Under the pieces are notes generated by a model. The model did not search any database. It was given only the letters and a program-made list of their open reading frames with translations, and was not told the DNA's origin. Source: an uncultured Candidatus Sumerlaeota bacterium (lineage in GTDB: Bacteria > CAYMEV01). From it: a stretch of 64,000 nucleotides of DNA. The stretch is from assembly GCA_964389675.1 (NCBI GenBank), contig CAYMEV010000003.1:65109-129108 (forward strand), written 5' to 3'. Shown in pieces: positions 15,168 to 36,125 of the stretch (position 1 is its first letter; the number at the start of each line of letters is the position of its first letter). A program made the translations under genes and the position numbers.

Positions 15168-17168
15168 ATGAGTATTGTATTAATATTCCCTCCGACATGG
15201 GATGTCAGCCTGCCATACCTTTCTCTGCCATGCCTTTCAGCATACCTGAAAAAACTTGGGGTTGAAGTATGTTCCATTGATGCAAATATAGAATCCTTTT
15301 ATTTTCTTCTGGAAACGTCTAACCTGGAAGAAGTGAAGGAATATATAACCGGAAAGATCAGAAACCCGCTGGATAAAAAGCATGAGGTCTTCATAAGGAG
15401 AGCCCTTGCAACATGTGATTTTATCATTGAAAAAAAGGATGAAGCTCTTGATTTCTTCAGGATCCCGGAAAACCTCAATAATTATCAGGGGCTCCTGTGG
15501 GCCAGCGATATCATTGAACAGACAATGGACCTCTATACGGCAAGGTATTACCCTATGTATTTCACCCTGTACGGGATTATAAACATGGTGAAAAAGTTTA
15601 ATCCTGATGAGATCATTGACTTTGCTGAAAACCCTTCCTATCCACTGGCAGTGTTCTACCGGGACAGGCTTCTGCCCCGGATAGAGGCTGAAAAGCCATC
15701 AATTGTGGGCTTTTCCGCTATATCAAGGGACCAGATGCTGCATTCCGTCTATCTTGCAAATCTGATAAAGGGGCATTTTCCTGAAATCCATACCACTATC
15801 GGGGGTTGTTTTATCAATGTGATCTCAGAGAAGATAAAAAGGGATTTCTATCCTCTGGGCAAGTATTTTGATACTGTTATCTTCGGCCAGGGCGAGATTC
15901 CGCTCTATAATCTGTACAGAATTATAAATGAAAAGAGTGATTATGAGAAAGACAGGAGAAATATACTCTCTCTCAGCGGGAAAGAAACTCCCATGAAGCA
16001 CTGCAATCTTTCATCCGAATATAAGGATTTTCCAGTCCCTGACTTCAGCGATTTTCCACTTGATAAATATATCTCAAATGACATTATGCTTCCATATCAG
16101 ATGGCAAGCGGCTGTTATTATGGCAAATGTGCTTTTTGCAACAGCAAAAGCGCAACAGTGCCGGATTATACTGCCAAGAATCCATCGAAGGTATACCAGG
16201 ACCTTAAGGAACTGCAGAGCAGGTATAACTGCAGTATATTTCATATTAACGATGAAGCCCTGAACATCAATCTCTTCAGCAGTATTGCCGGGGACCTGTC
16301 AGGCCTTGGCCTGACTGTCTTTACTCAGGCACGTTTTGAGAAAGGGCTTGACAAGGAAAAACTGCTGAAACTTAAAAAGGCCGGAATAAAGAAGATAGCA
16401 TTCGGGTTTGAATCTGGGAATGAACGGGTGCTTGGCCTGATGGAAAAGGGTTATGACCTGAAAGATGCAGGGATCATACTTGAAAACTGCCATAGACTGG
16501 GAATAGAAGTCCATCTCTTTGGGATTATAGCCTTCCCTGGTGAAACAGATAAGGAAAGGGAAGACACTGTAAAATTTGTCAAGAATCTTTCATCTTATAG
16601 AAAATCTCTTATGTTCGGTTATTTTTTCCATACATTTCTAATGGAGTACAATTCAAAGGTCTACAGGAACCCTTCTGATTATGGCATAGCGGAGATAATT
16701 GACAGGGAAAAGTTTAATTTTTATGCTGATTACCGCCTGAAGGATGAAAAAGAGATAATTGACGGCGAGACATTTCTTGAAATTAGGGATAAAATCCATA
16801 AGGAACTCTACGACAGCAAACCGGTGTCATGCAGGACACCATTTTTCAGTGATATTGTCTATCTGCATCACTTTGAACGAAGGCAGTATACCGATATCAT
16901 TGGTAATAATGAAATGCCCTATGAAAAGAGGTTCATAACAAAGACAGTAATATCCGGAAAGGATGGGAATGCTCAGGACTACATATTCGATCTGCAGAAT
17001 AAGAACCTGTTTTCCGTTGACAGAACTATGCAGGATATTTTCAATGCCTTGTTAAAAAATAGTTCCGGGGATCTGTCTTTTATAGCTCAGGAACTGGGTA
17101 TTCCTAAAATAATAGTAAAGCAGAAGATCCGTGATCACGGCTTTGAGTTTCTGTTTGAAAAAGCCTGA
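15168..17168 (+). CDS. B12-binding radical SAM protein (class B) with a C-terminal extension
   Basis: N-terminal B12-binding-like segments (IVLIFPP...LPYLSLPCLSAYLKKLGVEVCSID and IVGFSAIS...TTIGGCF). A radical SAM cysteine cluster C-YYGK-C-AF-C, which is CX4CX2C rather than the usual CX3CX2C. The C-terminal about 90 aa are PqqD-like (FDLQNKNLFSVDRTMQDIFNALLKNSSGDLSFIAQELGIP). 666 aa. Confidence 0.8.
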   Translation: MSIVLIFPPTWDVSLPYLSLPCLSAYLKKLGVEVCSIDANIESFYFLLETSNLEEVKEYITGKIRNPLDKKHEVFIRRALATCDFIIEKKDEALDFFRIPENLNNYQGLLWASDIIEQTMDLYTARYYPMYFTLYGIINMVKKFNPDEIIDFAENPSYPLAVFYRDRLLPRIEAEKPSIVGFSAISRDQMLHSVYLANLIKGHFPEIHTTIGGCFINVISEKIKRDFYPLGKYFDTVIFGQGEIPLYNLYRIINEKSDYEKDRRNILSLSGKETPMKHCNLSSEYKDFPVPDFSDFPLDKYISNDIMLPYQMASGCYYGKCAFCNSKSATVPDYTAKNPSKVYQDLKELQSRYNCSIFHINDEALNINLFSSIAGDLSGLGLTVFTQARFEKGLDKEKLLKLKKAGIKKIAFGFESGNERVLGLMEKGYDLKDAGIILENCHRLGIEVHLFGIIAFPGETDKEREDTVKFVKNLSSYRKSLMFGYFFHTFLMEYNSKVYRNPSDYGIAEIIDREKFNFYADYRLKDEKEIIDGETFLEIRDKIHKELYDSKPVSCRTPFFSDIVYLHHFERRQYTDIIGNNEMPYEKRFITKTVISGKDGNAQDYIFDLQNKNLFSVDRTMQDIFNALLKNSSGDLSFIAQELGIPKIIVKQKIRDHGFEFLFEKA

Positions 17169-17232
17169 ATTATTAGATAATGATGAATATTAAAAGAGGA
17201 TATAGAATTATGAGGGGAATGAGCAGAAGAAA

Positions 17233-17817
17233 ATGAAATGCCCTGAATGCAGTGCGCAGATATATATTCATCCTTCTGCCCTTATGGCATACTGTGAATC
17301 ATGCAGCAGCATTATTGCAAATGATGGCAAGCTGATGGCTGGCCAGAAACTGGCCCATATTGCAAAGACCCCGACCCGGTTTTTAATTGGAAGAAAGATC
17401 AGCATTGATGGCATCATCTATGATATTTGCGGCTGTTCGAGGTTTGGGCATAAGCTTGGATTCTGGGATGAATGGCATCTGTTATCCGGTGATTCAGACC
17501 CCTCCCTGATAATAGAGAATGAGGGCCTGCATGTCATTTGCAGGAAAACAGAGGTTCTGCCTTTATTTAAATTTCAGCCTGTGAATAGATATGAAAGGGC
17601 AAATCTGGCAGGCTACGATACATTTGTCCAGGAGGCCGGCAAAGCAGTACTGATCGGTATGAAGGGCAATATTTTTGAAAAACTGCTGCCGGTATCTGAA
17701 TTTTATTTTATAAAAGGGCTGAGCGGTGATAAAGTAATCAATATGTCATTCTTTGATGACAGGACTGCTGTCAAGGAAGGCAGTCCCCTGAAGTATGACC
17801 AGATAAAAATAGAATAA
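17233..17817 (+). CDS. Zinc-ribbon protein, DUF4178-like
   Basis: N-terminal CPEC...CESC zinc ribbon. Paralog of the ORF at 18186. Found in a DUF350 context. Confidence 0.35.
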   Translation: MKCPECSAQIYIHPSALMAYCESCSSIIANDGKLMAGQKLAHIAKTPTRFLIGRKISIDGIIYDICGCSRFGHKLGFWDEWHLLSGDSDPSLIIENEGLHVICRKTEVLPLFKFQPVNRYERANLAGYDTFVQEAGKAVLIGMKGNIFEKLLPVSEFYFIKGLSGDKVINMSFFDDRTAVKEGSPLKYDQIKIE

Positions 17818-17833
17818 TGAAGGAGGAGCTATT

Positions 17834-18175
17834 ATGAAAAAATATGCTGCATATTTTCTGATCTTGCTTTTTATGTTTTTCAGCTTCAGTAATCTTTTAT
17901 TTGCCGAGAACGGCGGCAGGGATATCGGCAGTATGATACAGAGGGCTGACAGGAACAGGTCTAATCTTTCATCATTTATAAGGGAACTTGTTTCAAGCAT
18001 GATCTTCGGCCTGATAGGAATTCTTCTTGCTATCATAGGGTATAAGCTGTTTGACATAGTAACACCCTTTTCCCTGGCAAAAGAACTTGCTGAAGACCAG
18101 AATATTGCTGTTGGAATAGTTGTCGGAGCGATAATTATAGGTATCTCAATAATAGTATCAAAAGCGATCATTTAG
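17834..18175 (+). CDS. DUF350 family small membrane protein
   Basis: Signal or TM segment, then the DUF350-like pattern GLIGILLAIIGYKLFDIVTPFSLAKELAEDQNIAVGIVVGAIIIGISIIV. RBS ggagg upstream. Confidence 0.5.
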   Translation: MKKYAAYFLILLFMFFSFSNLLFAENGGRDIGSMIQRADRNRSNLSSFIRELVSSMIFGLIGILLAIIGYKLFDIVTPFSLAKELAEDQNIAVGIVVGAIIIGISIIVSKAII

Positions 18176-18185
18176 AAAAAACCTG

Positions 18186-18830
18186 ATGATGCCTGTTTTA
18201 GAAAATGTCGTCTGCACGGTATGCGGAGCTTATAATAAGCTGTGCAATCCCAGGTCCATGTCTGTTGTCTGCCGCAGCTGCAGGTCTCTTATCGACCTTA
18301 AAGGCGATGCCTGTCAGATTATTGGAAGATTCCCCGGGCATTTCCATAAACTGCCCCTTCATACAGGCTGGGAAGGAGTATATGCCGGGGAGAGCGTAAA
18401 GGTGGCAGGCAGGCTCAGATATGTTCTTGGCCTTAAGAAAAGAGATGATTATTATATCCTTTCTGAAGGGGGAAGGAACCTTCTGCTCATGGCCTGCGAC
18501 GGCAAACCGGCTTTCTATGAATTAATCATGCCGATTGAGGCCATAGATCCGTATGATATAAAGAAAAGTCTTGTGATTGATAATAAAGAACAGGCCATAA
18601 TTTCCAGCGGGATGGGAAGAATAGTACAGGCTGACGGTGAGGTCATCTGGAAAATAAGCAGGAATGATTACCTGGGATGGGTAGAGACAGCTGACTATGC
18701 GATCAGGTTCAGCAGGTATAATGTACGATACTATCGGTGCCTTGGCAGGAGCTGGATCGGTATCAGGGACATATTCGGCAGCCTTGACAGGACACCATAT
18801 ACTGAAGTATTTCTCAAAAGTGGCCTTTAA
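18186..18830 (+). CDS. Zinc-ribbon protein, DUF4178-like (paralog of 17233)
   Basis: N-terminal CTVC...CRSC zinc ribbon. Shares the downstream architecture of 17233, including the LSEGGRNLLLMACDG segment versus IENEGLHVICRK. Confidence 0.35.
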   Translation: MMPVLENVVCTVCGAYNKLCNPRSMSVVCRSCRSLIDLKGDACQIIGRFPGHFHKLPLHTGWEGVYAGESVKVAGRLRYVLGLKKRDDYYILSEGGRNLLLMACDGKPAFYELIMPIEAIDPYDIKKSLVIDNKEQAIISSGMGRIVQADGEVIWKISRNDYLGWVETADYAIRFSRYNVRYYRCLGRSWIGIRDIFGSLDRTPYTEVFLKSGL

Positions 18831-18983
18831 CAGCAATTCTGAAATGGGCAGGGGCATGTGCAGGGTATTATAATAAAACTTTGCCGGGAAAACTGGAAAT
18901 ATGGTTTTCTTACACAGGGTTCTCTGCAGGGGTATAAAAAAATTGTTAATCAGTAACAGATATGATACCATTGATCAGCTGAA

Positions 18984-19967
18984 ATGAAAGAGTCAAAAAA
19001 ACCTGACAAGAAGAAACTGCTTAAAGAGCTGGTCGAGACCAATATAGAGAACAGGAAATCCCCCAAAAGAAAAGGCATGTACCGAAGGCAATCCTCCTCC
19101 GGAGTTATTACTGATACCCTGAACATAGAATCATTTATCATTTCCTTTTTCATAATACTGCTTCTGGGAGTTTTCCTCTACAACTCGAACATTTTCCCTG
19201 AAAGGACTGAATCTGAGAATGACCTTTACAGATTTAACGCTGATATTGTCAGAAAAAACCATGAGCAGTTTACTATCAGTGACCTGTTTAAATTCGGTGT
19301 TTCAACAATAATCATAGACCCTGGCCATGGGGGCAGGGATCCGGGGACTGTCTCATCCTCCGGCCTGCAGGAAAAGGATATAGTGCTTGACATTGCTCTA
19401 TACCTCAAAGAAATACTGATTAAAAATACCCCTTTTAATATAATCATGACAAGGGATTCTGATGAAACATTAAGCCTGAGCAAAAGAGCGGCAATTGCAA
19501 ATTCTGCCAACGGCGACCTTTTCATATCAATTCATCTGAATTATTCTTCCTATACATGGTTTTCAGGCATAGAAACCTATGTTCTTGGAATTGCGGATGA
19601 TACGGATGCATTGGAAACAGCATCCCTTGAGAACTTTTCCGAAAATCTGACGGTATCCGAGATGAATGATATTCTGGAAAGGATAAAAAAGGATTTCATA
19701 TCCCAGGAGAGCAGCAGGTTTGCAGGTTTTATGCAGAAAAACCTTGTAGAATCACTTAAAAGCTATAATAATAAGCTTAAGAACATAGGAGTTAAAAAGG
19801 CCCCTTTTGTTGTCCTTGCAAAGGTAAAGATGCCCAGTTCGCTGATCGAAGTTGCGTTTTTATCAAGCAAAAAGGATGAGAAGCTCCTGAAAGACCCTTT
19901 ATATCTCAGAGATATTGCAGAGGGGATATACAGGGGTATTATTGAGTATCTGGAAAATGAGGATTAA
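18984..19967 (+). CDS. N-acetylmuramoyl-L-alanine amidase (Amidase_3, AmiC-like), membrane anchored
   Basis: N-terminal TM segment, then the Amidase_3 core IIIDPGHGGRDPGT...DLFISIHLN. Confidence 0.85.
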   Translation: MKESKKPDKKKLLKELVETNIENRKSPKRKGMYRRQSSSGVITDTLNIESFIISFFIILLLGVFLYNSNIFPERTESENDLYRFNADIVRKNHEQFTISDLFKFGVSTIIIDPGHGGRDPGTVSSSGLQEKDIVLDIALYLKEILIKNTPFNIIMTRDSDETLSLSKRAAIANSANGDLFISIHLNYSSYTWFSGIETYVLGIADDTDALETASLENFSENLTVSEMNDILERIKKDFISQESSRFAGFMQKNLVESLKSYNNKLKNIGVKKAPFVVLAKVKMPSSLIEVAFLSSKKDEKLLKDPLYLRDIAEGIYRGIIEYLENED

Positions 19968-20038
19968 AAAACTATTGCAAAAGATTTAATTATTTAGTAT
20001 AAAATCTTTTAGAGTGTTATTAAATTAGGAGATGAAAA

Positions 20039-21106
20039 ATGACCGATTCTAAAAACAGCAGTACCAAGAAGAAATCGCCTGAAACTCTCGATACAGTCTT
20101 TATTGGTATCGACCTGGGGACATCAAGAAGCGCTATTGTCACTAACAGCGGTTCCCAGCAATGGGTAAGGTCTATTATAGGCTGGCCGAAGGATTTTGTA
20201 TCAAAGAAGCTTCTTAAAAAACCTGTCCTTATAGGTGATGAGGTTTTTGAACATAAGCTTGCCCTTGATATTTACAGACCCCTTGAGAGAGGTATTATAA
20301 AAACAGGCAGTGATAAAAGCGAGGAATCTGCATTATTACTGGTAAAACATCTTGTCAGCAGCGGCCTTGAAGCCATCAAGGAATATCAAAAAGCCTTTGC
20401 AGTAGTAGGAGTACCTTCAATGGCTTCAGAAGCCAACAGGGACTCGATAAAGCACTCACTCAAAGGACTCGTGAACGGCCTTATGATCGTAACTGAGCCT
20501 TTTGCTGTTGCATACAATGAAGACAGCCTGTCAAACAGCATCATAATAGATATCGGGGCCGGAACATGTGATTTCTGCATTATGCATGGTACCATTCCCG
20601 GAGATGATGATCAGGTAACCATCTATGAAGCTGGCGATTATATTGATGACCAGCTTTTTGACAGCCTTCTGGAAACATATCCGGAAGCACAGTTCACCAA
20701 GCACATGGCAACAATGTGGAAGGAAAAATACTCTTTTGTAGGAGACCCTCCAGAGCCAGTAAAGGTAACAATGCCGGTAAAAGGAAAACCTGTGACTTTT
20801 GACATCACCGATAATATAAGAAAATCCTGTGAATCCATAGTACCGTCCATAGTGGAAGTAATAAAAGACCTTATTGCGAATTTTGACCCTGAATTCCAGG
20901 AGGAAGCCAGAAATAATATTATAATTGCAGGGGGATGCAGTTCTATACGGGGATTACCGGAATACATAGAGGACAATCTGAGTGAGATTGGCGGTGCCAA
21001 GGTCAGGACAGTAAAGGACCCTCTTTACTGCGGTGCCACGGGAGCCCGTATGATAGCAGAGGATACCCCTATGGAAGACTGGGCAAAGCTTGCAAAATCA
21101 AAATGA
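20039..21106 (+). CDS. MamK-family actin-like ATPase
   Basis: Recalled sequence similarity along the whole length to Magnetospirillum MamK: GIDLGTSRSAIV, GWPKDF...GDEVFE...DIYRPLERGII, IIIDIGAGTCDF, KEKYSFVGDP, AGGCSSIRGLPEYIEDNL and VKDPLYCGATGA. Confidence 0.75.
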   Translation: MTDSKNSSTKKKSPETLDTVFIGIDLGTSRSAIVTNSGSQQWVRSIIGWPKDFVSKKLLKKPVLIGDEVFEHKLALDIYRPLERGIIKTGSDKSEESALLLVKHLVSSGLEAIKEYQKAFAVVGVPSMASEANRDSIKHSLKGLVNGLMIVTEPFAVAYNEDSLSNSIIIDIGAGTCDFCIMHGTIPGDDDQVTIYEAGDYIDDQLFDSLLETYPEAQFTKHMATMWKEKYSFVGDPPEPVKVTMPVKGKPVTFDITDNIRKSCESIVPSIVEVIKDLIANFDPEFQEEARNNIIIAGGCSSIRGLPEYIEDNLSEIGGAKVRTVKDPLYCGATGARMIAEDTPMEDWAKLAKSK

Positions 21107-21826
21107 GGGAGCTGTAATCAGTATCTCAGCGCTTTTCAGGGAAATGGTTGAATTTCCTGATCTTACATAAAGCGTGCCATCATTGCTGATATCTAATATC
21201 CTGCCTGTCACAGGTTCATCGCAAAAGGGCTTTATTATCTGTATATCATGATCCGGCCTGTAGAGCAGGTTCCTGTACATCTCTGTCATTTCCTGTAAAC
21301 CTGTCTTTTTGTCATAAGACTCTATATTTTCAAGAAGCAGGGATAATGCATCTTCAACTGCTATCTTCCTGTCAGAATACCTCTCAAGGCAGGTGTAATT
21401 CTCTATATCTTTGCAGGACTCGTCATAATATATATTTATTCCAATACCCATAATATATAATACATCATTTTCAACGGGGATACCTTCATTGAGGATACCG
21501 CATACCTTTTTGCTTTCAATAAGTATATCGTTTGGCCATTTGATTCTTATATCATTGCAATTTATAAGCGATCTGATAGTATCAAATGCCGAGAGGGATG
21601 ATATCAGCATAAGCCTGAATGCAAGGCCCTGAATGCTTCCGGCCAGATTGCCATAGCTCAGGTATATCCCTTTATTTCTTGGTGATGCCCAGAATCTCCT
21701 GTTCCTGCCCTTTCCTCCTGACTGAGCCTCGGCAGCTACTGCCAGGGGAGTCAGCCCATCTGCCTTATAAAGGCGTTTGAGCTCTTCATTGGTGGAATCA
21801 AGCTCTTTATACCGTTTGATCAGCAT
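21098..21826 (-). CDS. birA: Biotin--[acetyl-CoA-carboxylase] ligase (group I BirA, no HTH)
   Basis: LDSTNEELKR...AEAQSGGKGRNRRFWASPRNKGIYLS matches the BirA catalytic core. 242 aa. Confidence 0.75.
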   Translation of the reverse strand: MLIKRYKELDSTNEELKRLYKADGLTPLAVAAEAQSGGKGRNRRFWASPRNKGIYLSYGNLAGSIQGLAFRLMLISSLSAFDTIRSLINCNDIRIKWPNDILIESKKVCGILNEGIPVENDVLYIMGIGINIYYDESCKDIENYTCLERYSDRKIAVEDALSLLLENIESYDKKTGLQEMTEMYRNLLYRPDHDIQIIKPFCDEPVTGRILDISNDGTLYVRSGNSTISLKSAEILITAPSF

Positions 21827-25987: not shown

Positions 25988-27067
25988 ATGGCCATTGTAA
26001 ATGCATTAAAATTTGATAGATCTTCTGTCGGGATCATTGCTGATGAAGAATACTGGTTTCTTGGAAGGAGGAAAAGCTATTTCCAGGATACACTTCAGCA
26101 TCTTACAGACGAAGAAATAATAGAGAAAACGGGTATTGTAGCCGTTTATGGGGGAACAGGCACCCCTTCATTTCATTGGGATATTATCAAAAAAAGCAGG
26201 GCAAAGATAAAGGAGGAATTCTCAAACAGAGCTAAAAATATCAAGACCATATATGATATCAGCAAAATTGTTCTTGATGTTCTGCAGGATGTAAAAAGAG
26301 ATAGAATAAACCAGAAACTGAGATTTATGTACGGCTTTACGATTGATGATATAAACAGGGGGTTTTTTGAATTTGAGGGTAAAAAATACGATATAAAGCA
26401 AAAAAAGATAAAGGATAAATCACTGGGACTGGTCATGGGAAGCGATAAATCTCACCTTACCAAGCCCATACTTGAGAACAAGGCGGTAATATGCGGTTAT
26501 GACCAGAAGGACGGCATATCAATGTACTACCTGAACTCTGAAAACTCTGTTATGTCATTTACTTCCGGGGGATACGAAGCTATCGGTCCTGGCAAATATG
26601 CATCAGGCCTTGCATTTGCGGAATTTTTCCAGGGAATGCCGTTATATAAGAGAAGAGAGGGGTTTTCAAGGATAGAGGGGATGATACAGCTGATAAATTC
26701 GGCTATCATGGCTGCTGACTATTATAATGAAGTTGGCGGGCTTTTTAATATAATATTCATTGATGGAGAAAAGAAAAATCCCAAAGAAAGGGTTATAGAA
26801 GTCTTTGATAATAAAGGCAAACTTGCAAGCGAGATAGTGAGAAGCTTTAAATGGGGCATGATAACAAAGGAAGAGACTGCAAAATTTATCGATGAGCTGA
26901 TATTTAAGCAGTCTTCTGTAGATGCCCTTGAGGATAAACTTTATAAAGCATCAAAGGATCCAGAAAAGCTTGAACTTCTTTTAAGGGGATACAAGGAAAT
27001 GGAGCTTTGCGAACAGGCCAGCGGGAAGCAGACAAAAGAAAAATCAAAGAAGGCAAAAGGAGAGTAG
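25988..27067 (+). CDS. Hypothetical protein with an HslV/proteasome-beta-like (Ntn hydrolase) N-terminal region; Ala2 in place of the nucleophile
   Basis: MAIVNALKFDRSSVGIIADEEY resembles TTIVGVKYDGGVVLAADTR. VAVYGGTGTPSF resembles the HslV segment VIAGFAGGTADAF. AIGPGKYASGLAFAEF resembles AIGSGGPYAQAAARAL. Tandem paralog of 27069. Confidence 0.3.
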   Translation: MAIVNALKFDRSSVGIIADEEYWFLGRRKSYFQDTLQHLTDEEIIEKTGIVAVYGGTGTPSFHWDIIKKSRAKIKEEFSNRAKNIKTIYDISKIVLDVLQDVKRDRINQKLRFMYGFTIDDINRGFFEFEGKKYDIKQKKIKDKSLGLVMGSDKSHLTKPILENKAVICGYDQKDGISMYYLNSENSVMSFTSGGYEAIGPGKYASGLAFAEFFQGMPLYKRREGFSRIEGMIQLINSAIMAADYYNEVGGLFNIIFIDGEKKNPKERVIEVFDNKGKLASEIVRSFKWGMITKEETAKFIDELIFKQSSVDALEDKLYKASKDPEKLELLLRGYKEMELCEQASGKQTKEKSKKAKGE

Positions 27068-27068
27068 T

Positions 27069-28112
27069 ATGACATCAATTAATGCTATGAAGTTTAATGA
27101 AAAGCAAGGTATATTGATCTGTGACGAATCACGAGGCTGGAATCCGGAAGCAATGAAGCTTCAGACCTCTGATAAGATAAAACCTGTCGTTGAACCTGAG
27201 ATTACCAAAGATACCGGACTGGTAGCCTATTATGGAAATACCGGGACCTCATCAATAGGGGACGAGCTTAAATTCTCAATAAAGCAGGCAATCTCAAAAA
27301 GATTTGAGGAAGAAACCTCAAAAAGGCTGTCATTGCCTAAGGATTTTCTTACCATAGAGCAGATAGCCTCTCTTGCATATGATATACAGATTAATATGAA
27401 AAGGGAGCACATTGATGAGACGCTTCTCGGAAGATACGGCTTTTCCGCAAAGGATTTTATCTCAGGGGGATACACCAGGGATGGCCAGAAGATAGAAATA
27501 AAATCAGAAGAGATAATAAATACGGTTGCTGATGATTTAATATGGAACGGGAGAAAGGGCGAGCCGACCCCCATATTTCTTAATGCAGGGATTATTGCAG
27601 GCTATGAGCCTAAAGAGGGGTTCCGCATCTTCCATCTAAGCCTGATCGATTTCAGCTGTGAGCCCGTCCAGGAGCTCTTTTTAGGAGATGGATCGGGAAG
27701 GGATATGACCACAGTGGTATTTACTGAGCACTCCAATAAAAAGACTGTTCCTGAAAAGAGAGGAAATATTGATGTCACAGAGGGGCTTTTTATTGCTATT
27801 AAAGCAGTAAATGCAGCAGCAAGGCATGACCTGGGTGTCGGAGGTCAGTTTTCAATAATGTATATTGACGGAAATCAGAAAGACAATCTCAAAAAGACAA
27901 AAGAAATGTCAGATATGAGGATTAAACTTCTTTCAGAACTTGTTGAGGCAAATTATTATGAGGTCGTCAACAGGGATGTCTGTTACTTTGCCATAGAAAA
28001 GATAATACTTGAAGATCAGGACTTCTATACAACCTATGAGCAGGTAAAGGGCAAAATAAAGGATTTCAGGAAGTTTTCAAGATTCCTCAGAGGCTACAAG
28101 TTTAAGATGTAA
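27069..28112 (+). CDS. Hypothetical HslV/proteasome-beta-like protein retaining Thr2 (possible N-terminal nucleophile)
   Basis: MTSINAMKFNEKQGILICDES resembles MTTIVSVRRNGHVVIAGDG. Also carries the VAYYGNTGTSSI motif. Paralog of 25988, separated from it by 1 nt. Confidence 0.3.
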   Translation: MTSINAMKFNEKQGILICDESRGWNPEAMKLQTSDKIKPVVEPEITKDTGLVAYYGNTGTSSIGDELKFSIKQAISKRFEEETSKRLSLPKDFLTIEQIASLAYDIQINMKREHIDETLLGRYGFSAKDFISGGYTRDGQKIEIKSEEIINTVADDLIWNGRKGEPTPIFLNAGIIAGYEPKEGFRIFHLSLIDFSCEPVQELFLGDGSGRDMTTVVFTEHSNKKTVPEKRGNIDVTEGLFIAIKAVNAAARHDLGVGGQFSIMYIDGNQKDNLKKTKEMSDMRIKLLSELVEANYYEVVNRDVCYFAIEKIILEDQDFYTTYEQVKGKIKDFRKFSRFLRGYKFKM

Positions 28113-28202
28113 CAATACTAAGGGGCACTGATAAGGTGCCCTTTCTATTTTTCACTTATTGAACCACTTTATTTTATATCCCTGGAAAATGGTCTGATCA
28201 AT

Positions 28203-29579
28203 ATGGCTTTAAGGAATAAGATCCGTATTTATGCGTTCTGGTTTTTTTTCGTATTATCCGCTTTGTCTTTTCTCTTTTTAATACTTAATCTTATTGCCGG
28301 GGCTAAACAGCTGGATTTCCTCTTATTCAGGCTCAGCTTCAGGAATACAGGGAAACTCATACAAAATCTGCTCATTATCACTTTTATTGCATATTTGGCC
28401 GATCGCCTTGAGTTTAAGAAGCAGTTAAAAAGATGCAGGCCCATGATTGTAATTATCCTGATGGCGCTTCTTGCCTTTATTCCTGCGAAAATACTTTTCA
28501 GCAATTATTCTCCATATAATAAATTTACCTCACTGATAAATTTCGGGCAGGAACAGTTTAAAGACGCATTGCCGGAAATCCGCGGATCATATCCTGCTGT
28601 TGCTTCAAAATGGGGCTATGACGGTCAGTACTATGCTCAGCTGTCTGCCGACCCGCTCCTGAGAAGTGATAAGCTTCCCAAAGCTCTTGATCTGCCTCAT
28701 TACAGAGCAAGGCGTATTGGACTGCCGTTCCTGGCTTTTTTGCTTGGAATGGGGAAAACATCCCGGGTCCTGAATGTTTATTCAGTCCTGAATGCAGCAT
28801 TCTGGATCCTTCTCCTGGCAATTATTATAGTGCATACAGGCTGCAGGAGGTACAGGGACTTCCTGCTGGCGGCCTCAATGCTGTGGGCTACGGGGACTCT
28901 GGTCTCAGTTGAGAGGGCATTGACAGACCTTCCTGCAGCTGTAATGGGGGTTGCAGCCGTTTTTACGCGCAGTTCATGGATAGCTGCTGCAGTGCTTCTT
29001 AGCTGTGCAGGTCTTATCAAGGAAACCTCAATACTGAGCTTTACTGCTGTTCCTGTCGAACCGGGGTCAAAGCATGAAAGAAGAAAAAGACTGCTGGCAA
29101 CATTGTTTATCTGCCTTCTGCCTGTTCTTGCATGGGCTTTATATGTTCATCTTGTTTTTAAAAATATGGCCGGAATGGGGGGCAATAACTTTAATCTGCC
29201 ATTTTTTGGAATCTTCATGAAATTTCAATCAGCCATATCAGGGCTGATAACAGGTAAAGCGGGAATATTGGGACACCAGCTGTTATTTGAACTTCTATGC
29301 CCTTTTTCTCTTCTGGTTCAGGCATTATACCTTGCAGTATGTTTCCGTCCGGATTCAAAAGAATGGAGATTAGGAGTTGGATTTGCTTTTCTTCTTTTAT
29401 TTCTGGGCTCTGATGTGTGGGCTGAACAGCATGCATATTCGAGAGTCCTTCTTCCTATGACATTTTCCTTCAACCTTCTCCTGCACAGATTTGAAAAGGG
29501 ATATAAATACGCTATTTTATATATATTGGGTAATACCGGAATGTTCTGGGCAGTATTCTGGCATTTCCAGCAGGCCTGA
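28203..29579 (+). CDS. Polytopic integral membrane protein of unknown function
   Basis: More than 10 predicted TM helices. Co-oriented with a downstream GT-C-like gene. Confidence 0.4.
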   Translation: MALRNKIRIYAFWFFFVLSALSFLFLILNLIAGAKQLDFLLFRLSFRNTGKLIQNLLIITFIAYLADRLEFKKQLKRCRPMIVIILMALLAFIPAKILFSNYSPYNKFTSLINFGQEQFKDALPEIRGSYPAVASKWGYDGQYYAQLSADPLLRSDKLPKALDLPHYRARRIGLPFLAFLLGMGKTSRVLNVYSVLNAAFWILLLAIIIVHTGCRRYRDFLLAASMLWATGTLVSVERALTDLPAAVMGVAAVFTRSSWIAAAVLLSCAGLIKETSILSFTAVPVEPGSKHERRKRLLATLFICLLPVLAWALYVHLVFKNMAGMGGNNFNLPFFGIFMKFQSAISGLITGKAGILGHQLLFELLCPFSLLVQALYLAVCFRPDSKEWRLGVGFAFLLLFLGSDVWAEQHAYSRVLLPMTFSFNLLLHRFEKGYKYAILYILGNTGMFWAVFWHFQQA

Positions 29580-29620
29580 TGCCTGGAAAGGATTAAATTG
29601 ATATACCTGGATAAAGAGCT

Positions 29621-30988
29621 ATGTTCAGACTGCTGAAGAATAAGAGAAATATAGTATATCTGATCACAGGTTATGCTGCAGTATTGCTGATATCCTTTAT
29701 CTTTCATTATGCCTTTTATTACCCTGAGCATGAGATAAGGGTGGAGAGTGACGGGATAGGCTATTATTCCTACCTGAGGTCGGTCTTCTTTGACGGCGAT
29801 ATTGAGTTTTCAAATGAATTTGAAAGGCTCGGTTCCGATGATTTTGCCCTGCCTTCTCCGGATGACAGGACAGGTGAAGGCTATACCCCTAATCCATTCT
29901 CGATCGGGCCGGGAATACTCTGGAGCCCTTTCTATATCTGCGCCCATATGGCAGGGTATGCAATGAATATGCTCGGCGCTGATATTGTCCTTGATGGTTA
30001 CAGCGGAATTTATGTCTACTTTTGTGTTGCCGGGACAATCTTTTATGGATATCTGGGATTGTATCTTCTCTTCAAAATGCTGAGCATATTCTTTTCTAAA
30101 ACTATCTCTTTCTCTGTTACAGGATTTATTCTGTTCGGGAGCGCTCTGTTTTATTATATGATATCAGAATATTTCATGTCGCATGTTCATTCGTTCTTTG
30201 CAGTTACACTCCTTTTATACTTCATTTTCATCAGGCTTGACAGGGAAAGGGGCAGTGAGACAGACTGGTTTTTTGCCGGGCTTATTTCCGGGTTTGCCGG
30301 AATTATCAGGTGGCAGAACATAGGTTTTGCAATAGTGCCCGCTTTCCTGCTGATACTGAATACATGCAGAGAGTATAAAAAAGCAGGCAGGAAAAGAGTG
30401 TTTACAGGGCTTATAAGAAGGGCTTCCCTGTTTGGGGCAGGGTTTATTATCATCATTATCCCTCAAATGATTATTATAAAAATGATCTACGGGTTCTGGT
30501 TTGGAATACCGCAGGGGCAGGCTTTCTTCTCATTTGACATTTTAAGGATGTTCTATGTGCTCTTTTCACCGTATCACGGCCTTTTCCAGTGGCATCCCAT
30601 ACTGCTCTTCGGGTTTGCAGGGCTCATATTATCAGGGTTTAAATCCTTAAAGAACCTGTTTTTTCTTATGGCCTTTATTATACAGGTATATATAGTAAGC
30701 CTGCCTTATGACTGGTGGGCAGGGCATTCATTCGGCATGAGAAGGCTTCTGAACAGCAGCGCGCTTCTTGCTTTCGGCCTTTCGGGCATCCTGTATGCCT
30801 TATCCAGAAAGAACAGGGCTGTCTACAGGATCATCTATCTTGTTTTCATAGTATTTTGCCTGATAAACATCCTGATGTCATGTGCATATGTCAAATCTCT
30901 AATACCACATGATATTCCATGGTCCTACATTCAATCCCTTGAAAGCATAATCTTTCTGGTCAGGAAGATTATGCTCAAGCTGTTTTAG
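29621..30988 (+). CDS. GT-C fold membrane glycosyltransferase-like protein (ArnT/PMT-like)
   Basis: Multi-TM protein with a first-loop motif ESDGIGYYSYLRSVFFDGDIEF resembling the ArnT/PMT DE..Y..AR....GDW signature. Paralog of 58071. Confidence 0.45.
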   Translation: MFRLLKNKRNIVYLITGYAAVLLISFIFHYAFYYPEHEIRVESDGIGYYSYLRSVFFDGDIEFSNEFERLGSDDFALPSPDDRTGEGYTPNPFSIGPGILWSPFYICAHMAGYAMNMLGADIVLDGYSGIYVYFCVAGTIFYGYLGLYLLFKMLSIFFSKTISFSVTGFILFGSALFYYMISEYFMSHVHSFFAVTLLLYFIFIRLDRERGSETDWFFAGLISGFAGIIRWQNIGFAIVPAFLLILNTCREYKKAGRKRVFTGLIRRASLFGAGFIIIIIPQMIIIKMIYGFWFGIPQGQAFFSFDILRMFYVLFSPYHGLFQWHPILLFGFAGLILSGFKSLKNLFFLMAFIIQVYIVSLPYDWWAGHSFGMRRLLNSSALLAFGLSGILYALSRKNRAVYRIIYLVFIVFCLINILMSCAYVKSLIPHDIPWSYIQSLESIIFLVRKIMLKLF

Positions 30989-32197: not shown

Positions 32198-33124
32198 ATG
32201 GCTGAAATTGTATACAGGGAAAACCAGGAAGAAAGGCTTATAACCCTTGATAAGGATTCATTTGTGATTGGCAGAAGCCCAAGCTGTGAAATTGCAATAA
32301 GCAGTGACACAATATCAAGAAGGCATGCAAAACTGGAAAAAAGGTCAAACCGGTATTATATTACTGACCTTGGAAGCAGGAATGGTGTTTTTGTCAATGA
32401 TGAAAAGATAGTTGAATCAGTACTGAAGGATGGAGATTTTATCAAGCTTGGTGTTTTTGAGTTTACCTTTCATGATAAAGAGCCTGTTATTGTAGACAGC
32501 AATAAGACAATACAGCAGGAGCAGAAGACCATTATGCTGGAAAACCCGCTTGAGAAATTCATATTAAAGGACCTTCCGGCATCTGAGGATACATATATTG
32601 AAAAAAAAGAAAAAGATAAAGTAATTGAAGATGATATAATTGCTGAAGACCGGCAGGAAAGTACGCCTGATGATGATGAAAGCGAAATTGAATCAGATGG
32701 ATACTTCCCCAACCTTCTGATCTTTCATGATGAAAAGGCATTCAGGGCTACCATAAAAAAGAACCGTAATACGATCGGAGGTTCTGCGATTTCTGATATA
32801 CCCATAAATCACGAAGGTTTTCCTGAATCAGCCTGTATTATCAGGAATGAAAAGGGCATTTTCTATTTAGTGGATGAATTTCAGACAGGGGAGATCATGT
32901 ATAATAATGTCCCTGTAATACATAAAAGACTGTTTGATAAGATGATATTTATGATTCAGGATGTGACTTTCCAGTTTATTTCCAATAAGAAGGGTGCTGA
33001 AGCAGTTTTTGAAAAAGTTTATGCTGTCTTCAGGATTTTTATTGAAAAACCTCTGATAGGCATGGCATTTGTTGCTGGAATTCTTATTCTGATCTCTCTT
33101 CTTCTTGTTATATTTTTATTATAA
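32198..33124 (+). CDS. FHA-domain protein (one clear and one probable FHA) with a C-terminal TM anchor; SctD-like cytoplasmic module
   Basis: FHA motif VIGRSP.CEIAI..DTISRRHAKL....YYITDLGSRNGVFVN. A second FHA-like block (NTIGGS...ACIIRNEKGIFYLVD). A C-terminal hydrophobic helix MAFVAGILILISLLLVIFLL. Confidence 0.65.
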   Translation: MAEIVYRENQEERLITLDKDSFVIGRSPSCEIAISSDTISRRHAKLEKRSNRYYITDLGSRNGVFVNDEKIVESVLKDGDFIKLGVFEFTFHDKEPVIVDSNKTIQQEQKTIMLENPLEKFILKDLPASEDTYIEKKEKDKVIEDDIIAEDRQESTPDDDESEIESDGYFPNLLIFHDEKAFRATIKKNRNTIGGSAISDIPINHEGFPESACIIRNEKGIFYLVDEFQTGEIMYNNVPVIHKRLFDKMIFMIQDVTFQFISNKKGAEAVFEKVYAVFRIFIEKPLIGMAFVAGILILISLLLVIFLL

Positions 33125-33140
33125 AAATTAAGGATATTTT

Positions 33141-33845
33141 ATGAGCCTGAGAAGCGAACCTTCTAATGAGCTGTCTGAAGAACTGATACAAAATTACCAG
33201 GATTATCTAAGAAAGATCGCATATTTTGTGAAGATTACGCTTCCTGATAATATTGAGATCGACGACCTGGTCCAGTATGGGGAGATCGGCCTGATAGAAG
33301 CAGCAAGAAAATTTGATCCGAAACTGGGTGTTTCGTTCAAGACATACAGCTATTACAGGATCAGGGGTGCTATATATGACGGGCTCAGGACCATGGGGCT
33401 TTTTAAGGCAAAACAGTATAAGAATCATGTAATGCGCCAGAAAATCAATGACCTGATGATGCAGGAAACAAATAATGTAAATATAAACAGCGATACCTGC
33501 AGAAATGATGACAGCGTTGAAAGACTGCGGGATATATTTTCCAGTGTTGCAACACTTATCACTCTTTCTTATGCATCTTATATGGACCATGAGGTACAGA
33601 ACGGCAATGATGATATAAATAAGGAGCTTATAACCGAGGAAACAAAATCCTTAATTATGAAGGCAATTGAACAGCTTTCCCATAAGGAAAGAAATGTTGT
33701 TAAGCTTTACTATTTTGATGAACTGACATTTGAAGACATCGGCAAAGAAATGGGGCTTTCAAAGAGCTGGATTTCACGTGTACATCTGCAGGCGATAAAT
33801 AAGCTTAAGCAGAAGCTTAAGCAAAGTAATATAACAACATATTGA
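33141..33845 (+). CDS. fliA: Sigma-28 (FliA/WhiG) family RNA polymerase sigma factor
   Basis: Sigma-70 region 2 (DLVQYGEIGLIEAARKFDPKLGVSFKTYSYYRIRGAI) and region 4 (LTFEDIGKEMGLSKSWISRVHLQAINKLK). 234 aa, typical of FliA. Confidence 0.8.
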   Translation: MSLRSEPSNELSEELIQNYQDYLRKIAYFVKITLPDNIEIDDLVQYGEIGLIEAARKFDPKLGVSFKTYSYYRIRGAIYDGLRTMGLFKAKQYKNHVMRQKINDLMMQETNNVNINSDTCRNDDSVERLRDIFSSVATLITLSYASYMDHEVQNGNDDINKELITEETKSLIMKAIEQLSHKERNVVKLYYFDELTFEDIGKEMGLSKSWISRVHLQAINKLKQKLKQSNITTY

Positions 33846-33897
33846 CAGATAGAATCGATAATCTATATGTAATGTTATATAAGGAGGTGTCGCAACT

Positions 33898-34359
33898 ATG
33901 GATCCTGTATCGTCAAAGACTGTAAAAAAAAGCATTAGCAATATTGCTGAGAAGAATATTCAGAATGAGATGAATAAAAATCTTCCGACAAATCCAGATA
34001 AACCTTCCAGCTTTGAGCAGCTTCGGCTTGATAAGGTAAATGAAATACCAAAGGATGCTGAACTTAAGGTTAACGAGGTTGGAAAGCAAAAAGATATGGA
34101 TATATCAAGCACGCAGAAAGTCCAGGACAATAATCCCATAGACGGCTTGAAAAACCTGACCGATAACCTTGAGAAAAGCAATGTAGAGCTTGATAATCTC
34201 ATCAAGAGTGTTATGCAGGATGGCAGGTCATTTTCACCGTCTGAACTGATGGCAATGCAAGCTCAGATATATCAGCTTACCAGGGAGATAGAACTTACCA
34301 GCAAGGTTGTTGAACAGGCCAACCAGGGCATAAAGACCATGCTGAATCAGCAAGTATAA
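33898..34359 (+). CDS. FliE-like or T3SS inner-rod-like protein
   Basis: The C-terminus (SELMAMQAQIYQLTREIELTSKVVEQANQGIKTMLNQQV) resembles the FliE C-terminus (...MQ...KLV.AYQEVMSMQV). Sits in the fliE position before the MS-ring gene. Confidence 0.35.
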   Translation: MDPVSSKTVKKSISNIAEKNIQNEMNKNLPTNPDKPSSFEQLRLDKVNEIPKDAELKVNEVGKQKDMDISSTQKVQDNNPIDGLKNLTDNLEKSNVELDNLIKSVMQDGRSFSPSELMAMQAQIYQLTREIELTSKVVEQANQGIKTMLNQQV

Positions 34360-34370
34360 GGAGAAACTGC

Positions 34371-35171: not shown

Positions 35172-35175
35172 TAAT

Positions 35176-36123: not shown

Positions 36124-36125
36124 AA

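What the first reader, a model, noticed from the sequence alone, without database searches (positions are those of the whole stretch)
20039..21106. MamK-family actin beside a cell-wall amidase, with no magnetosome genes in the window
The protein aligns along its whole length with magnetosome-filament actin MamK, and not merely with generic MreB/ParM motifs. Yet the neighbours are an AmiC-type amidase upstream and the convergent birA. No mamA/B/E/M/O/P/Q-like genes are nearby. Either the organism is magnetotactic with its magnetosome island elsewhere, or this is a MamK-like cytoskeletal filament with another role, perhaps linked to septal peptidoglycan hydrolysis.
Basis: partly seen in the sequence, partly recalled or inferred. 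Interest (0 to 1): 0.6.

Follow-up and report, generated by a model that had tools for sequence, protein, structure and literature searches.

The report
Actin-like filament gene paired with wall amidase
This MamK-like bacterial actin is not a magnetosome gene: it belongs to a widespread, undescribed two-gene unit in which the actin is always encoded just after a membrane-anchored cell-wall amidase, suggesting a cytoskeletal filament that positions or controls a wall-cutting enzyme.

Summary
ORF 20039-21106 encodes a 355-aa actin that is 41% identical to Magnetospirillum MamK over its full length. It just passes NCBI's MamK model (407.7 bits, cutoff 400). The 64-kb window has no magnetosome genes.

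The gene is not a magnetosome MamK. In 132 of 132 related loci with room upstream, an Amidase_3 gene sits immediately upstream on the same strand, usually overlapping. These loci span many phyla (GC 38-74%) whose names indicate no magnetotactic group. None of 27 other MamK-like actins has the amidase. MamKs in magnetosome clusters form separate clades.

The partner amidase has:
- a conserved N-terminal cytoplasmic peptide, [KR]xx[ILM]L[RK]x[VLA][YV][ED][ED]N[LIV], in 58 of 60 full-length copies;
- one transmembrane helix;
- an AmiA/B/C-type catalytic domain with the regulatory-helix insertion;
- no AMIN domain.

One subclade adds a receiver-TM-SPOR gene directly downstream (38 loci).

Best explanation (inferred, not shown): the filament binds the amidase's cytoplasmic tail and so positions or regulates peptidoglycan cleavage, probably at the septum.

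No paper in the searched library describes this pairing. Two caveats apply: the trees are neighbour-joining only, with 60% support under broad sampling, and the organism is an unnamed deep lineage.

The parts
18845..18874 (+). Promoter-like site (TGGGCA-18-TATAAT) in the 153-nt gap upstream of the amidase gene. It is a possible operon promoter.
   Evidence: Consensus scan only, 10/12 match. This is weak evidence. No terminator-like site lies between the amidase and the actin.
18984..19967 (+). Gene for a bitopic, membrane-anchored N-acetylmuramoyl-L-alanine amidase (327 aa), the conserved partner of the actin.
   Evidence: Pfam Amidase_3 2.5e-52. Best PDB match is AmiB 3NE8, followed by AmiC 4BIN and AmiA 8C2O. 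A homolog lies immediately upstream of the actin in 86/86 genome loci and 46/46 metagenome loci of the clade.
19008..19046 (+). Conserved N-terminal cytoplasmic peptide of the amidase (aa 9-21, KKKLLKELVETNI). It is the proposed actin-binding tail.
   Evidence: The motif [ILMV][ILVM]xx[LAIVG][VIYFAH]xxN[..] occurs in 58/60 full-length partner amidases, with two further near-matches. Asn at +8 and K/R at -3 are identical in all 58. Controls: 7/750 other proteins and 79/3000 shuffled N-termini. A low-confidence AF2 model predicts a helix at 9-22.
19125..19181 (+). Single transmembrane helix of the amidase (aa 48-66, IESFIISFFIILLLGVFLY), preceded by a basic stretch.
   Evidence: Kyte-Doolittle 19-residue mean is 2.44. 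A comparable segment was detected in 59/67 partner amidases, about 17 residues after the motif.
19308..19943 (+). Periplasmic Amidase_3 catalytic domain (aa 109-320), including a roughly 50-aa insertion (aa ~207-257, nt 19602-19754) that corresponds to the regulatory (autoinhibitory) helix of AmiA/B/C.
   Evidence: The alignment with AmiB, AmiC and AmiA is contiguous over 109-324. Unregulated amidases (4RN7, 5EMI, CwlV) align in two pieces that skip 207-257. The DPGHGG, EKD, SIH and IEV motifs align with those of AmiB.
20027..20031 (+). AGGAG ribosome-binding site of the actin gene.
   Evidence: Read directly from the sequence, 7 nt before the ATG at 20039.
20039..21106 (+). Gene for a MamK-superfamily actin-like ATPase (355 aa) belonging to the amidase-linked clade.
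   Evidence: Searches give family and fold. Searches give clade placement. The nucleotide-binding motifs DLGTS, EPF, DIGAGT and AGG are invariant in alignment A1.

Best explanation
The gene encodes a member of a distinct, phylogenetically widespread branch of the MamK superfamily. This branch is encoded as an operon with a membrane-anchored peptidoglycan amidase and has nothing to do with magnetosomes.

Proposed mechanism:
1. The actin polymerises in the cytoplasm in an ATP-dependent way, like MamK.
2. The amidase is a bitopic protein. Its short, conserved N-terminal peptide lies in the cytoplasm and docks on the filament.
3. Its regulated, AmiA/B/C-type catalytic domain lies in the periplasm.
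4. The filament therefore clusters, positions or moves the amidase along the membrane, and possibly helps switch it on. This determines where stem peptides are removed from the cell wall, most plausibly during septum splitting and daughter-cell separation.

Shown: family placement, the strictly conserved gene pairing, the amidase architecture, the conserved tail motif, and the accessory SPOR gene in one subclade.

Inferred: physical contact between tail and filament, the positioning role, and the septal site of action.
For: (1) Gene pairing. An Amidase_3 gene lies immediately upstream on the same strand in 86/86 loci from species-representative genomes with room upstream. The same holds in 46/46 independent metagenome loci whose actin is at least 58% identical to clade references. 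Gaps are mostly -58 to +32 nt. All other neighbours differ between phyla. GC content spans 38-74%.

(2) Specificity. None of 27 MamK-like actins outside the clade has the amidase. Their neighbours are magnetosome genes or heterogeneous genes.

(3) Phylogeny. Amidase-linked sequences form one clade. Bootstrap is 90 with two-query sampling and 60 with broad context-labelled sampling. This clade is separate from proteobacterial magnetosome MamK (98) and from divergent magnetosome-cluster MamKs (97-100).

(4) Amidase tail. A conserved cytoplasmic N-terminal motif with Asn and K/R identical in all 58 matches is present in 58/60 copies. Controls give 0.9% and 2.6%. It is followed by one TM helix.

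(5) Amidase type. The catalytic domain carries the AmiA/B/C regulatory insertion and aligned metal-ligand motifs.

(6) Accessory genes. A receiver-TM-SPOR protein is encoded directly downstream in 38 loci, and a PilZ-TM protein with a weak AMIN match nearby in about 6. Established knowledge: SPOR domains bind amidase-denuded glycan at septa.

(7) The actin keeps its ATPase motifs and a MamK-like predicted fold.

(8) Precedents. FtsA binds the cytoplasmic tail of bitopic FtsN (PMC7613929). MreB isologues control the autolysins LytE and CwlO (PMC3817527).
Against: - No direct evidence of contact between the amidase tail and the actin. A complex prediction could not be run.
- A search for actin residues specific to the clade gave only one position, G90, so no binding patch is identified.
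- Conserved operons can reflect co-regulation without physical interaction.
- Clade monophyly has only 60% NJ bootstrap once the whole superfamily is sampled, and the superfamily backbone is unresolved.
- The SPOR and PilZ accessory genes are absent from the window's own lineage.
- The amidase model is low confidence (pLDDT 40).
- The septal site of action is a guess based on the amidase type and the SPOR link.
Confidence: 0.6

Rival explanations
1. It is a genuine magnetosome MamK. The organism is magnetotactic and its magnetosome gene cluster lies elsewhere in the genome. The amidase neighbour is incidental.
For: The protein passes the NCBIfam MamK cutoff (407.7 vs 400). MamK is the best solved-structure match. 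The rest of the 224-kb contig and the assembly could not be searched. MamK-like copies outside the island are reported for M. magneticum (title of reference 20 as listed in PMC10653835).
Against: - 132/132 clade members carry the amidase, and none of their flanks (up to 10 kb each side) holds a mam gene apart from one ArsB-type permease.
- Locus titles name lineages such as Thermoanaerobaculia, Holophagales, Gemmatimonadota, Rokubacteria, Aminicenantes, Schekmanbacteria and Candidatus Sulfobium. That these are not known to be magnetotactic is my own knowledge.
- MamKs confirmed in magnetosome clusters form other clades.
- The hit set is much larger for the window actin (5505 proteins at E<=1e-10) than for AMB-1 MamK (866).
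Confidence: 0.03
2. The two genes are co-transcribed and act in the same envelope process, but the filament does not touch the amidase. The conserved amidase tail binds something else, such as the membrane, a divisome protein or a signalling protein. The actin organises a different cargo.
For: No contact is demonstrated. No clade-specific surface patch was found on the actin. The accessory proteins carry cytoplasmic receiver or PilZ domains that could be the real partners of either protein.
Against: - The only universally co-inherited cytoplasmic elements of the module are the actin and the amidase tail.
- The accessory genes are lineage-specific.
- Translational coupling or overlap is typical of subunits that interact.
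- A conserved Asn within an amphipathic motif argues for a specific protein contact rather than generic membrane binding.
Confidence: 0.2
3. The actin is mainly an ATP-driven switch rather than a track. Polymerisation on the amidase tails clusters them and relieves the periplasmic autoinhibitory helix across the membrane. This would be functionally analogous to FtsEX-EnvC control of amidases.
For: The amidase has the regulatory insertion but no LytM activator gene was seen in the window. ATPase motifs are intact. There is precedent for cytoplasmic ATPases controlling periplasmic autolysins (FtsEX-CwlO, PMC3817527).
Against: A single TM helix and a long, poorly conserved periplasmic linker (45-110 aa) make an unlikely conduit for a conformational signal. 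LytM activators may be encoded elsewhere. This rival overlaps with, rather than excludes, the positioning model.
Confidence: 0.12
4. The pair is a mobile or phage-derived cassette, for example a lysis amidase plus a segregation actin or a defence system, rather than a housekeeping cell-wall module.
For: The amidase catalytic domain hits phage endolysin families, and the actin hits a phage partition-protein family. The pair appears in unrelated genomic contexts across phyla.
Against: - The PHROG hits are generic to the domain and, for the amidase, split in two pieces.
- There is no significant PADLOC match.
- Flanks are housekeeping genes with conserved synteny in the window's lineage.
- No phage, integrase or plasmid genes were seen.
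- The actin tree groups loci largely by the taxon named in their titles: Desulfobulbaceae-type, Nitrospirota-type and Acidobacteriota-type groups.
- The amidase is of the regulated cell-separation type, with a TM anchor.
Confidence: 0.03

Closest known systems
MamK (magnetosome-chain actin of magnetotactic bacteria)
   Same: Same superfamily and fold. 41% identity over the full length. Passes the NCBIfam MamK subfamily cutoff. Best structural match is 5LJV. ATPase motifs are conserved. It likely forms similar filaments (inferred).
   Different: It is not encoded in a magnetosome gene cluster and lies in a separate clade. It is invariably paired with an amidase, which the examined magnetosome-cluster MamKs never are. 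Its clade occurs mostly in lineages not known to be magnetotactic (for the names; the rest is my own knowledge).
BeeR (MamK-related tubular actin of Verrucomicrobiota, PMC11929497)
   Same: Another MamK-related actin reported in non-magnetotactic bacteria and presumed to have a different function. It is the second-best structural match (8R2N).
   Different: Only 29% identical. NCBIfam BeeR scores 199.8 against a cutoff of 530. It forms a separate clade (bootstrap 92). BeeR has a disordered N-terminal domain, and the paper does not mention operon or genomic context.
FtsA-FtsN (divisome actin binding the cytoplasmic tail of a bitopic SPOR protein, PMC7613929)
   Same: Closest mechanistic analogue. 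A cytoplasmic actin-like filament engages a short N-terminal cytoplasmic peptide of a single-pass protein, whose periplasmic part acts on septal peptidoglycan. The SPOR domain recurs in the module's accessory gene.
   Different: The actin belongs to a different family (FtsA score 19.9 vs cutoff 175.85). The tethered protein here is itself a hydrolase. The interaction here is inferred, not shown.
MreB isologues controlling the autolysins LytE and CwlO in Bacillus subtilis (PMC3817527)
   Same: Precedent for bacterial actins governing where and when cell-wall hydrolases act.
   Different: The B. subtilis hydrolases are endopeptidases encoded apart from the actin genes (my own knowledge). Here a dedicated actin and a membrane-tethered amidase are co-encoded.
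AmiA/AmiB/AmiC cell-separation amidases (3NE8, 4BIN, 8C2O)
   Same: Amidase_3 catalytic domain with aligned metal-ligand motifs and the regulatory-helix insertion.
   Different: There is no AMIN targeting domain and no matching of the NCBIfam equivalog cutoffs. Instead there is a conserved cytoplasmic peptide and a TM anchor. That AmiA/B/C are normally exported as soluble periplasmic enzymes is my own knowledge.

Membership tests
MamK (magnetosome actin), functional sense | Sequence scores above the curated NCBIfam NF040964 cutoff | tested here: met
   407.7 bits against a cutoff of 400, a marginal pass.
MamK (magnetosome actin), functional sense | Encoded within or beside a magnetosome gene cluster (mamI/E/M/O/P/Q/B etc.) | tested here: not met
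   No such Pfam families occur in the 64-kb window. tblastn with 21 Mam proteins gave no hit in the window or in 89 related loci, apart from MamK itself and one ArsB-type permease. Reference MamKs P0147 and P0189 do sit in such clusters.
MamK (magnetosome actin), functional sense | Groups phylogenetically with MamKs of known magnetotactic bacteria | tested here: not met
   The proteobacterial MamK clade (bootstrap 98) and the divergent magnetosome-cluster MamK clade (97-100) both exclude it. It falls in the amidase-linked clade, with bootstrap 90 or 60. The trees are NJ only.
MamK (magnetosome actin), functional sense | MamK-like actin fold | tested here: met
   AF2 model has pLDDT 79.9. Foldseek's best hit is 5LJV with TM 0.78/0.85.
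MamK (magnetosome actin), functional sense | Organism makes magnetosomes, and the filament aligns them | not testable with these tools
The organism is an unnamed lineage.
Amidase-linked MamK-like actin clade (defined here) | Amidase_3 gene immediately upstream on the same strand | tested here: met
   In the window, the amidase is at 18984-19967 and the actin at 20039-21106, a 71-nt gap. Across the clade the count is 132/132.
Amidase-linked MamK-like actin clade (defined here) | Partner amidase has the N-terminal cytoplasmic motif plus a single TM helix | tested here: met
   The window amidase has KKKLLKELVETNI at aa 9-21 and a TM helix at aa 48-66.
AmiA/B/C-type regulated cell-separation amidase | Amidase_3 catalytic domain with conserved metal-ligand and catalytic residues | tested here: met
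   Pfam 2.5e-52. DPGHGG, EKD, SIH and IEV align with AmiB 3NE8.
AmiA/B/C-type regulated cell-separation amidase | Regulatory (autoinhibitory) helix insertion in the catalytic domain | tested here: met
   The alignment with AmiB, AmiC and AmiA is contiguous. Unregulated amidases skip residues 207-257. Whether the insertion actually occludes the active site is not testable here.
AmiA/B/C-type regulated cell-separation amidase | N-terminal AMIN targeting domain (AmiB/AmiC) and equivalog-level score | tested here: not met
   There is no AMIN Pfam hit. NCBIfam scores are AmiC 99.7/700, AmiA 103.2/400 and AmiB 83/532.
BeeR | NCBIfam NF053558 cutoff | tested here: not met
   199.8 bits against 530. 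BeeR forms a separate clade.
MreB | NCBIfam MreB cutoffs | tested here: not met
   63 bits against 293, and 55 against 365.75. PDB MreB matches have E 5e-11 and 21-22% identity.

The most novel reading that the evidence does not exclude
A previously unrecognised functional class of bacterial actin. It would be a dedicated cytoplasmic filament that directly tethers a regulated peptidoglycan amidase through a conserved about 13-residue cytoplasmic peptide. It is present across Acidobacteriota, Nitrospirota, Desulfobacterota, Gemmatimonadota, Rokubacteria and other phyla. It may also represent the ancestral, housekeeping function from which the magnetosome actin MamK was later recruited.
Probability: 0.35. 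Interest if true: 0.85.

Novelty: new variant of a known kind. Interest (0 to 1): 0.72.

Why it matters
1. It would add a new, widely distributed job to the short list of bacterial actin functions (shape, division, plasmid segregation, magnetosome alignment). The job is direct tethering of a cell-wall hydrolase. It would also offer a new answer to how bacteria that lack AMIN-targeted amidases place septal hydrolysis.

2. It bears on the origin of magnetosome genes. MamK's nearest relatives include a large housekeeping clade. This clade gave more database hits than Magnetospirillum MamK did (5505 vs 866 at E<=1e-10).

3. It has a practical consequence. Members of this clade are already labelled 'MamK family actin-like protein' in public records (P0044, P0091 and P0097). 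[quoted passage not shown] A MamK-family hit on its own is therefore not evidence of magnetotaxis. The upstream amidase is a simple discriminator.

Tried and rejected
- Looking up the window's own contig by exact protein failed, although the protein is in the collection. The rest of the 224-kb contig could not be searched for mam genes.
- A Lon-based taxonomy probe showed only an unnamed lineage: 58-75% identity, then 49% or less to mixed phyla.
- I suspected amidase-actin fusion proteins among the long representatives. Pfam showed none. The extensions are coiled-coil or disordered, and one protein is an FtsZ-actin fusion.
It worked with 4 sequences.
- My first motif regular expression had the wrong spacing and found almost nothing.
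- My first ORF caller failed in high-GC loci. I fixed it with an anchor and a GC3 filter.
- The scan for clade-specific actin residues gave a single position, so there is no binding patch.
- The single-sequence AF2 model of the amidase was low confidence, so I used it only weakly.
- I initially took identity to Magnetospirillum MamK to be about 50%. BLASTP gives 41%.
- With all 50%-cluster representatives included, the NJ backbone is unresolved. I therefore make no claim about the branching order of the clades.
- The upstream DUF4178-DUF350-DUF4178 and rSAM genes were considered as parts of the module and rejected. They are conserved only in the window's own lineage.
Full report
**1. The observation**

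The ORF is real and lies at the stated coordinates: 20039-21106 (+), 355 aa, ATG start. An AGGAG ribosome-binding site sits 7 nt upstream.

It resembles MamK along its whole length:
- BLASTP against Magnetospirillum MamK (sequence recovered from PDB 5LJW) gives 137/334 identities (41%), 65% positives, 2 gap positions and E 5e-99.
- In a search of PDB sequences, the MamK entries score E about 1e-86. The BeeR filament protein scores 1e-39 and MreB 5e-11.
- The NCBIfam 'MamK family' model is passed, but only just: 407.7 bits against a cutoff of 400. BeeR (199.8/530) and MreB (63/293) fail.
- An AlphaFold model built on 17 homologs (pLDDT 79.9) matches the MamK filament structure 5LJV best, at TM 0.78/0.85. 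BeeR and MreB follow.

The neighbours are as described. An Amidase_3 gene lies at 18984-19967 (+). A convergent birA at 21098-21826 (-) overlaps the actin's 3' end by 9 nt.

Pfam scans of essentially all large ORFs in the window show housekeeping genes (tig, clpP, lon, metH and others) and a type-III-secretion-like cluster. They show no CDF transporter, magnetochrome protease, LemA, MamI or similar gene.

**2. The amidase is not an incidental neighbour**

Close relatives of the actin (58-89% identity) keep the whole local gene order. That alone says little.

The decisive result came from 80 loci in species-representative genomes whose actins are 46-51% identical to the window protein. By their record titles they come from:
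- Thermoanaerobaculia, Holophagales and other Acidobacteriota;
- Nitrospirota, including Thermodesulfovibrionales and Candidatus Sulfobium;
- Desulfobulbaceae, Syntrophobacteraceae and other 'delta' lineages;
- Gemmatimonadota, Rokubacteria, Schekmanbacteria and Aminicenantes;
- some Gammaproteobacteria.

GC content in these loci ranges from 38 to 74%.

tblastn with the window's neighbours showed an Amidase_3 homolog immediately upstream on the same strand in 86 of 89 loci. In the three exceptions the actin gene sits at the contig edge. birA, nadC, DUF4178, DUF350 and the radical-SAM gene recur only in the window's own lineage. The amidase and actin genes mostly overlap or lie a few bases apart.

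**3. Independent test and specificity**

A separate scan of metagenome contigs was seeded with a different MamK-like clade and returned a mixture of actins.
- Every actin at least 58% identical to a clade reference, with room upstream, had the amidase (46/46).
- None of the 27 actins outside the clade did.
- Four of those 27 (L153, L154, L159, L165) are flanked by MamB/E/M/P/T homologs. They are therefore MamKs from divergent magnetosome clusters. They are 37-39% identical to Magnetospirillum MamK and 41-42% identical to the window protein.
- The remainder have heterogeneous neighbours.

Two members of the Magnetospirillum-type clade sit in canonical clusters with MamI, MamE, MamM, MamO, MamP, MamQ, MamB and MamS/X and no amidase. 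These are Magnetospira QH-2 and an abundant gammaproteobacterial lineage.

tblastn with 21 Mam proteins from those clusters found nothing in the window or in the 89 clade loci. The only exceptions were MamK itself and one ArsB-type permease.

**4. Phylogeny**

All trees are neighbour-joining, with Kimura distances, and rooted on MreB.

| Sampling | Amidase-linked clade | Other clades |
|---|---|---|
| Top 120 hits of the window protein and of Magnetospirillum MamK | 203 sequences, bootstrap 90; holds every amidase-linked actin and no sequence from a named magnetotactic organism | 121 sequences, bootstrap 98; holds PDB MamK and all 25 sequences named from magnetotactic taxa |
| Only sequences of known context (86 amidase-linked, 36 others) | All 86 fall in one clade with no other sequence; bootstrap 60% (119/200) | Proteobacterial MamK 98%; divergent magnetosome-cluster MamKs 97-100%; 'clade C' 100% |

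When all 50%-identity representatives of the superfamily are added, the backbone is unresolved. I therefore make no claim about which clade is ancestral.

The superfamily is large and diverse. At the 50% clustering level, 144 representatives score E<=1e-30. The window protein has 5505 hits at E<=1e-10, against 866 for Magnetospirillum MamK.

**5. The partner amidase**

Its catalytic domain aligns contiguously with AmiB (3NE8), AmiC (4BIN) and AmiA (8C2O). The alignment includes a roughly 50-residue insertion (aa ~207-257) that unregulated amidases such as CwlV, 4RN7 and 5EMI lack. This corresponds to the regulatory helix of the cell-separation amidases. The DPGHGG, EKD, SIH and IEV motifs are conserved.

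Unlike AmiB and AmiC it has no AMIN domain. Instead, across phyla, the protein has this layout:
1. A conserved N-terminal peptide, consensus [KR]xx[ILM]L[RK]x[VLA][YV][ED][ED]N[LIV]. In the window it reads KKKLLKELVETNI (aa 9-21).
2. A basic stretch of about 17 residues.
3. One transmembrane helix (window aa 48-66).
4. A variable linker.
5. The catalytic domain.

The motif is present in 58 of 60 full-length partner amidases, and the other two are near-matches. The Asn, and a K/R three residues before the motif, are identical in all 58. It occurs in 7/750 other neighbouring proteins and in 79/3000 shuffled N-termini.

Basic residues before the helix, together with a periplasmic enzyme domain, imply an N-in topology. 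This is an inference. On that reading the motif is cytoplasmic, in the same compartment as the actin.

**6. Accessory genes**

In the Nitrospirota-type subclade, the gene directly after the actin encodes a receiver domain, a TM helix and a SPOR domain. It lies 8-180 nt away on the same strand in 38 loci. Pfam scores for SPOR are 1e-13 to 1e-16.

In a Holophagales-type subclade, a PilZ-TM protein with a weak AMIN match lies upstream in about six loci.

Established knowledge: SPOR domains bind glycan strands stripped of peptides by amidases, and AMIN domains target amidases to septa. These lineage-specific additions tie the module to peptidoglycan, and probably to the septum. Neither is present in the window.

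**7. Mechanism**

The best-supported model has these parts:
- The actin forms ATP-dependent cytoplasmic filaments. Its nucleotide-binding motifs are invariant and its predicted fold is MamK-like.
- The amidase's cytoplasmic peptide docks on the filament.
- The periplasmic, autoinhibited amidase is thereby clustered, positioned or moved, and possibly activated.

The closest worked example is FtsA binding the cytoplasmic tail of bitopic FtsN (PMC7613929). Control of the autolysins LytE and CwlO by MreB isologues is a looser precedent (PMC3817527).

The contact itself, the positioning role and the site of action are all inferred. I could not run a complex prediction, and a scan for clade-specific actin residues found only G90.

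Rival explanations:
- Co-transcription without contact.
- A switch-like, FtsEX-type activation.
- A true MamK with its island elsewhere (unlikely).
- A phage or defence cassette (unlikely). PADLOC gave no significant match, and the PHROG hits are generic.

**8. Known or new**

Full-text searches found no paper that links a MamK-family actin to an amidase:
- 'MamK' with 'amidase';
- 'MamK-like' with 'non-magnetotactic';
- 'MamK', 'homologs', 'actin-like';
- 'actin-like', 'amidase', 'SPOR'.

The BeeR paper describes a different MamK-related family, at 25-30% identity, in non-magnetotactic Verrucomicrobiota. [quoted passage not shown] Public records already name clade members 'MamK family actin-like protein'.

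The components belong to known families. The coupled module and the conserved tail motif appear undescribed within the searched library.

**9. Limits**

Its Lon protease has relatives at 58-75% identity in a few unnamed contigs, then 49% or less to mixed phyla.
- The rest of the assembly could not be searched.
- The trees are neighbour-joining only.
- All loci are from metagenome-assembled genomes or metagenomes, with some redundancy. There are 39 clade actins at below 80% mutual identity.

Noticed in passing
window 32198-43957: A type-III-secretion or flagellar-type export cluster. It includes FHA proteins, a sigma-70 family factor, a YscI-like rod protein, YscJ/FliF, FliG-like, FliH/YscL, the ATPase, YscO/FliJ, FliK-like, an FHA-FliN fusion, FliP, FliR and FlhB. 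A GGDEF-FHA protein and a Ser/Thr kinase lie downstream. No flagellin or hook genes were seen in the window, so it may be a non-flagellar T3SS in an unnamed lineage.
   Followed up: partly
window 15168-18830; L007:3636-9000: Upstream of the amidase lies a B12/radical-SAM protein, then DUF4178, DUF350 and DUF4178 genes. In the 58% relative a spermine-synthase-like gene lies between these and the amidase. This block is conserved only in the window's own lineage, not with the amidase-actin pair elsewhere.
   Followed up: partly
window 25988-30988: Four consecutive ORFs (359, 347, 458 and 455 aa) have no Pfam hit. At least the first three are conserved in the same position in relatives (L001-L004).
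   Followed up: no
P0369, P0373, P0374, P0376, P0378-P0380, P0382-P0387, P0389: A strongly supported clade (bootstrap 100) of MamK-like actins carries N-terminal extensions of 200-900 aa. The extensions are coiled-coil or disordered and rich in K, S and E. They have no Pfam domain and no TM helix. Their context and function are unknown.
   Followed up: partly
P0399: A 768-aa protein fuses a complete FtsZ (Tubulin plus FtsZ_C) to a C-terminal MamK-like actin domain.
   Followed up: no
L093-L108: Another MamK-like clade ('clade C', bootstrap 100) has neither an upstream amidase nor magnetosome genes. Its neighbours include GFO_IDH_MocA oxidoreductases, TPR proteins and ParB.
   Followed up: partly
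L011:3496-4770, L030:2099-3322, L051:11022-12398 and 35 further loci: A receiver-TM-SPOR protein is encoded directly after the actin in the Nitrospirota-type subclade. A PilZ-TM protein with a weak AMIN match (L064:7320-8849) lies upstream in a Holophagales-type subclade. Both pair a cytoplasmic signalling domain with a periplasmic peptidoglycan-binding domain.
   Followed up: partly
P0044, P0091, P0097: Public records label amidase-linked clade members from Thermodesulfovibrionales, Nitrospirota and Thermodesulfobacteriota as 'MamK family actin-like protein'. The NCBIfam cutoff (400 bits) does not separate this clade from magnetosome MamKs. The window protein scores 407.7.
   Followed up: partly
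window 1569-3872 (Lon) and whole window: The organism appears to belong to a sparsely sampled deep lineage. Lon has relatives at 58-75% identity in a handful of unnamed contigs, and then 49% or less to Acidobacteriota, Desulfobacterota, Binatia and Firmicutes alike.
   Followed up: partly
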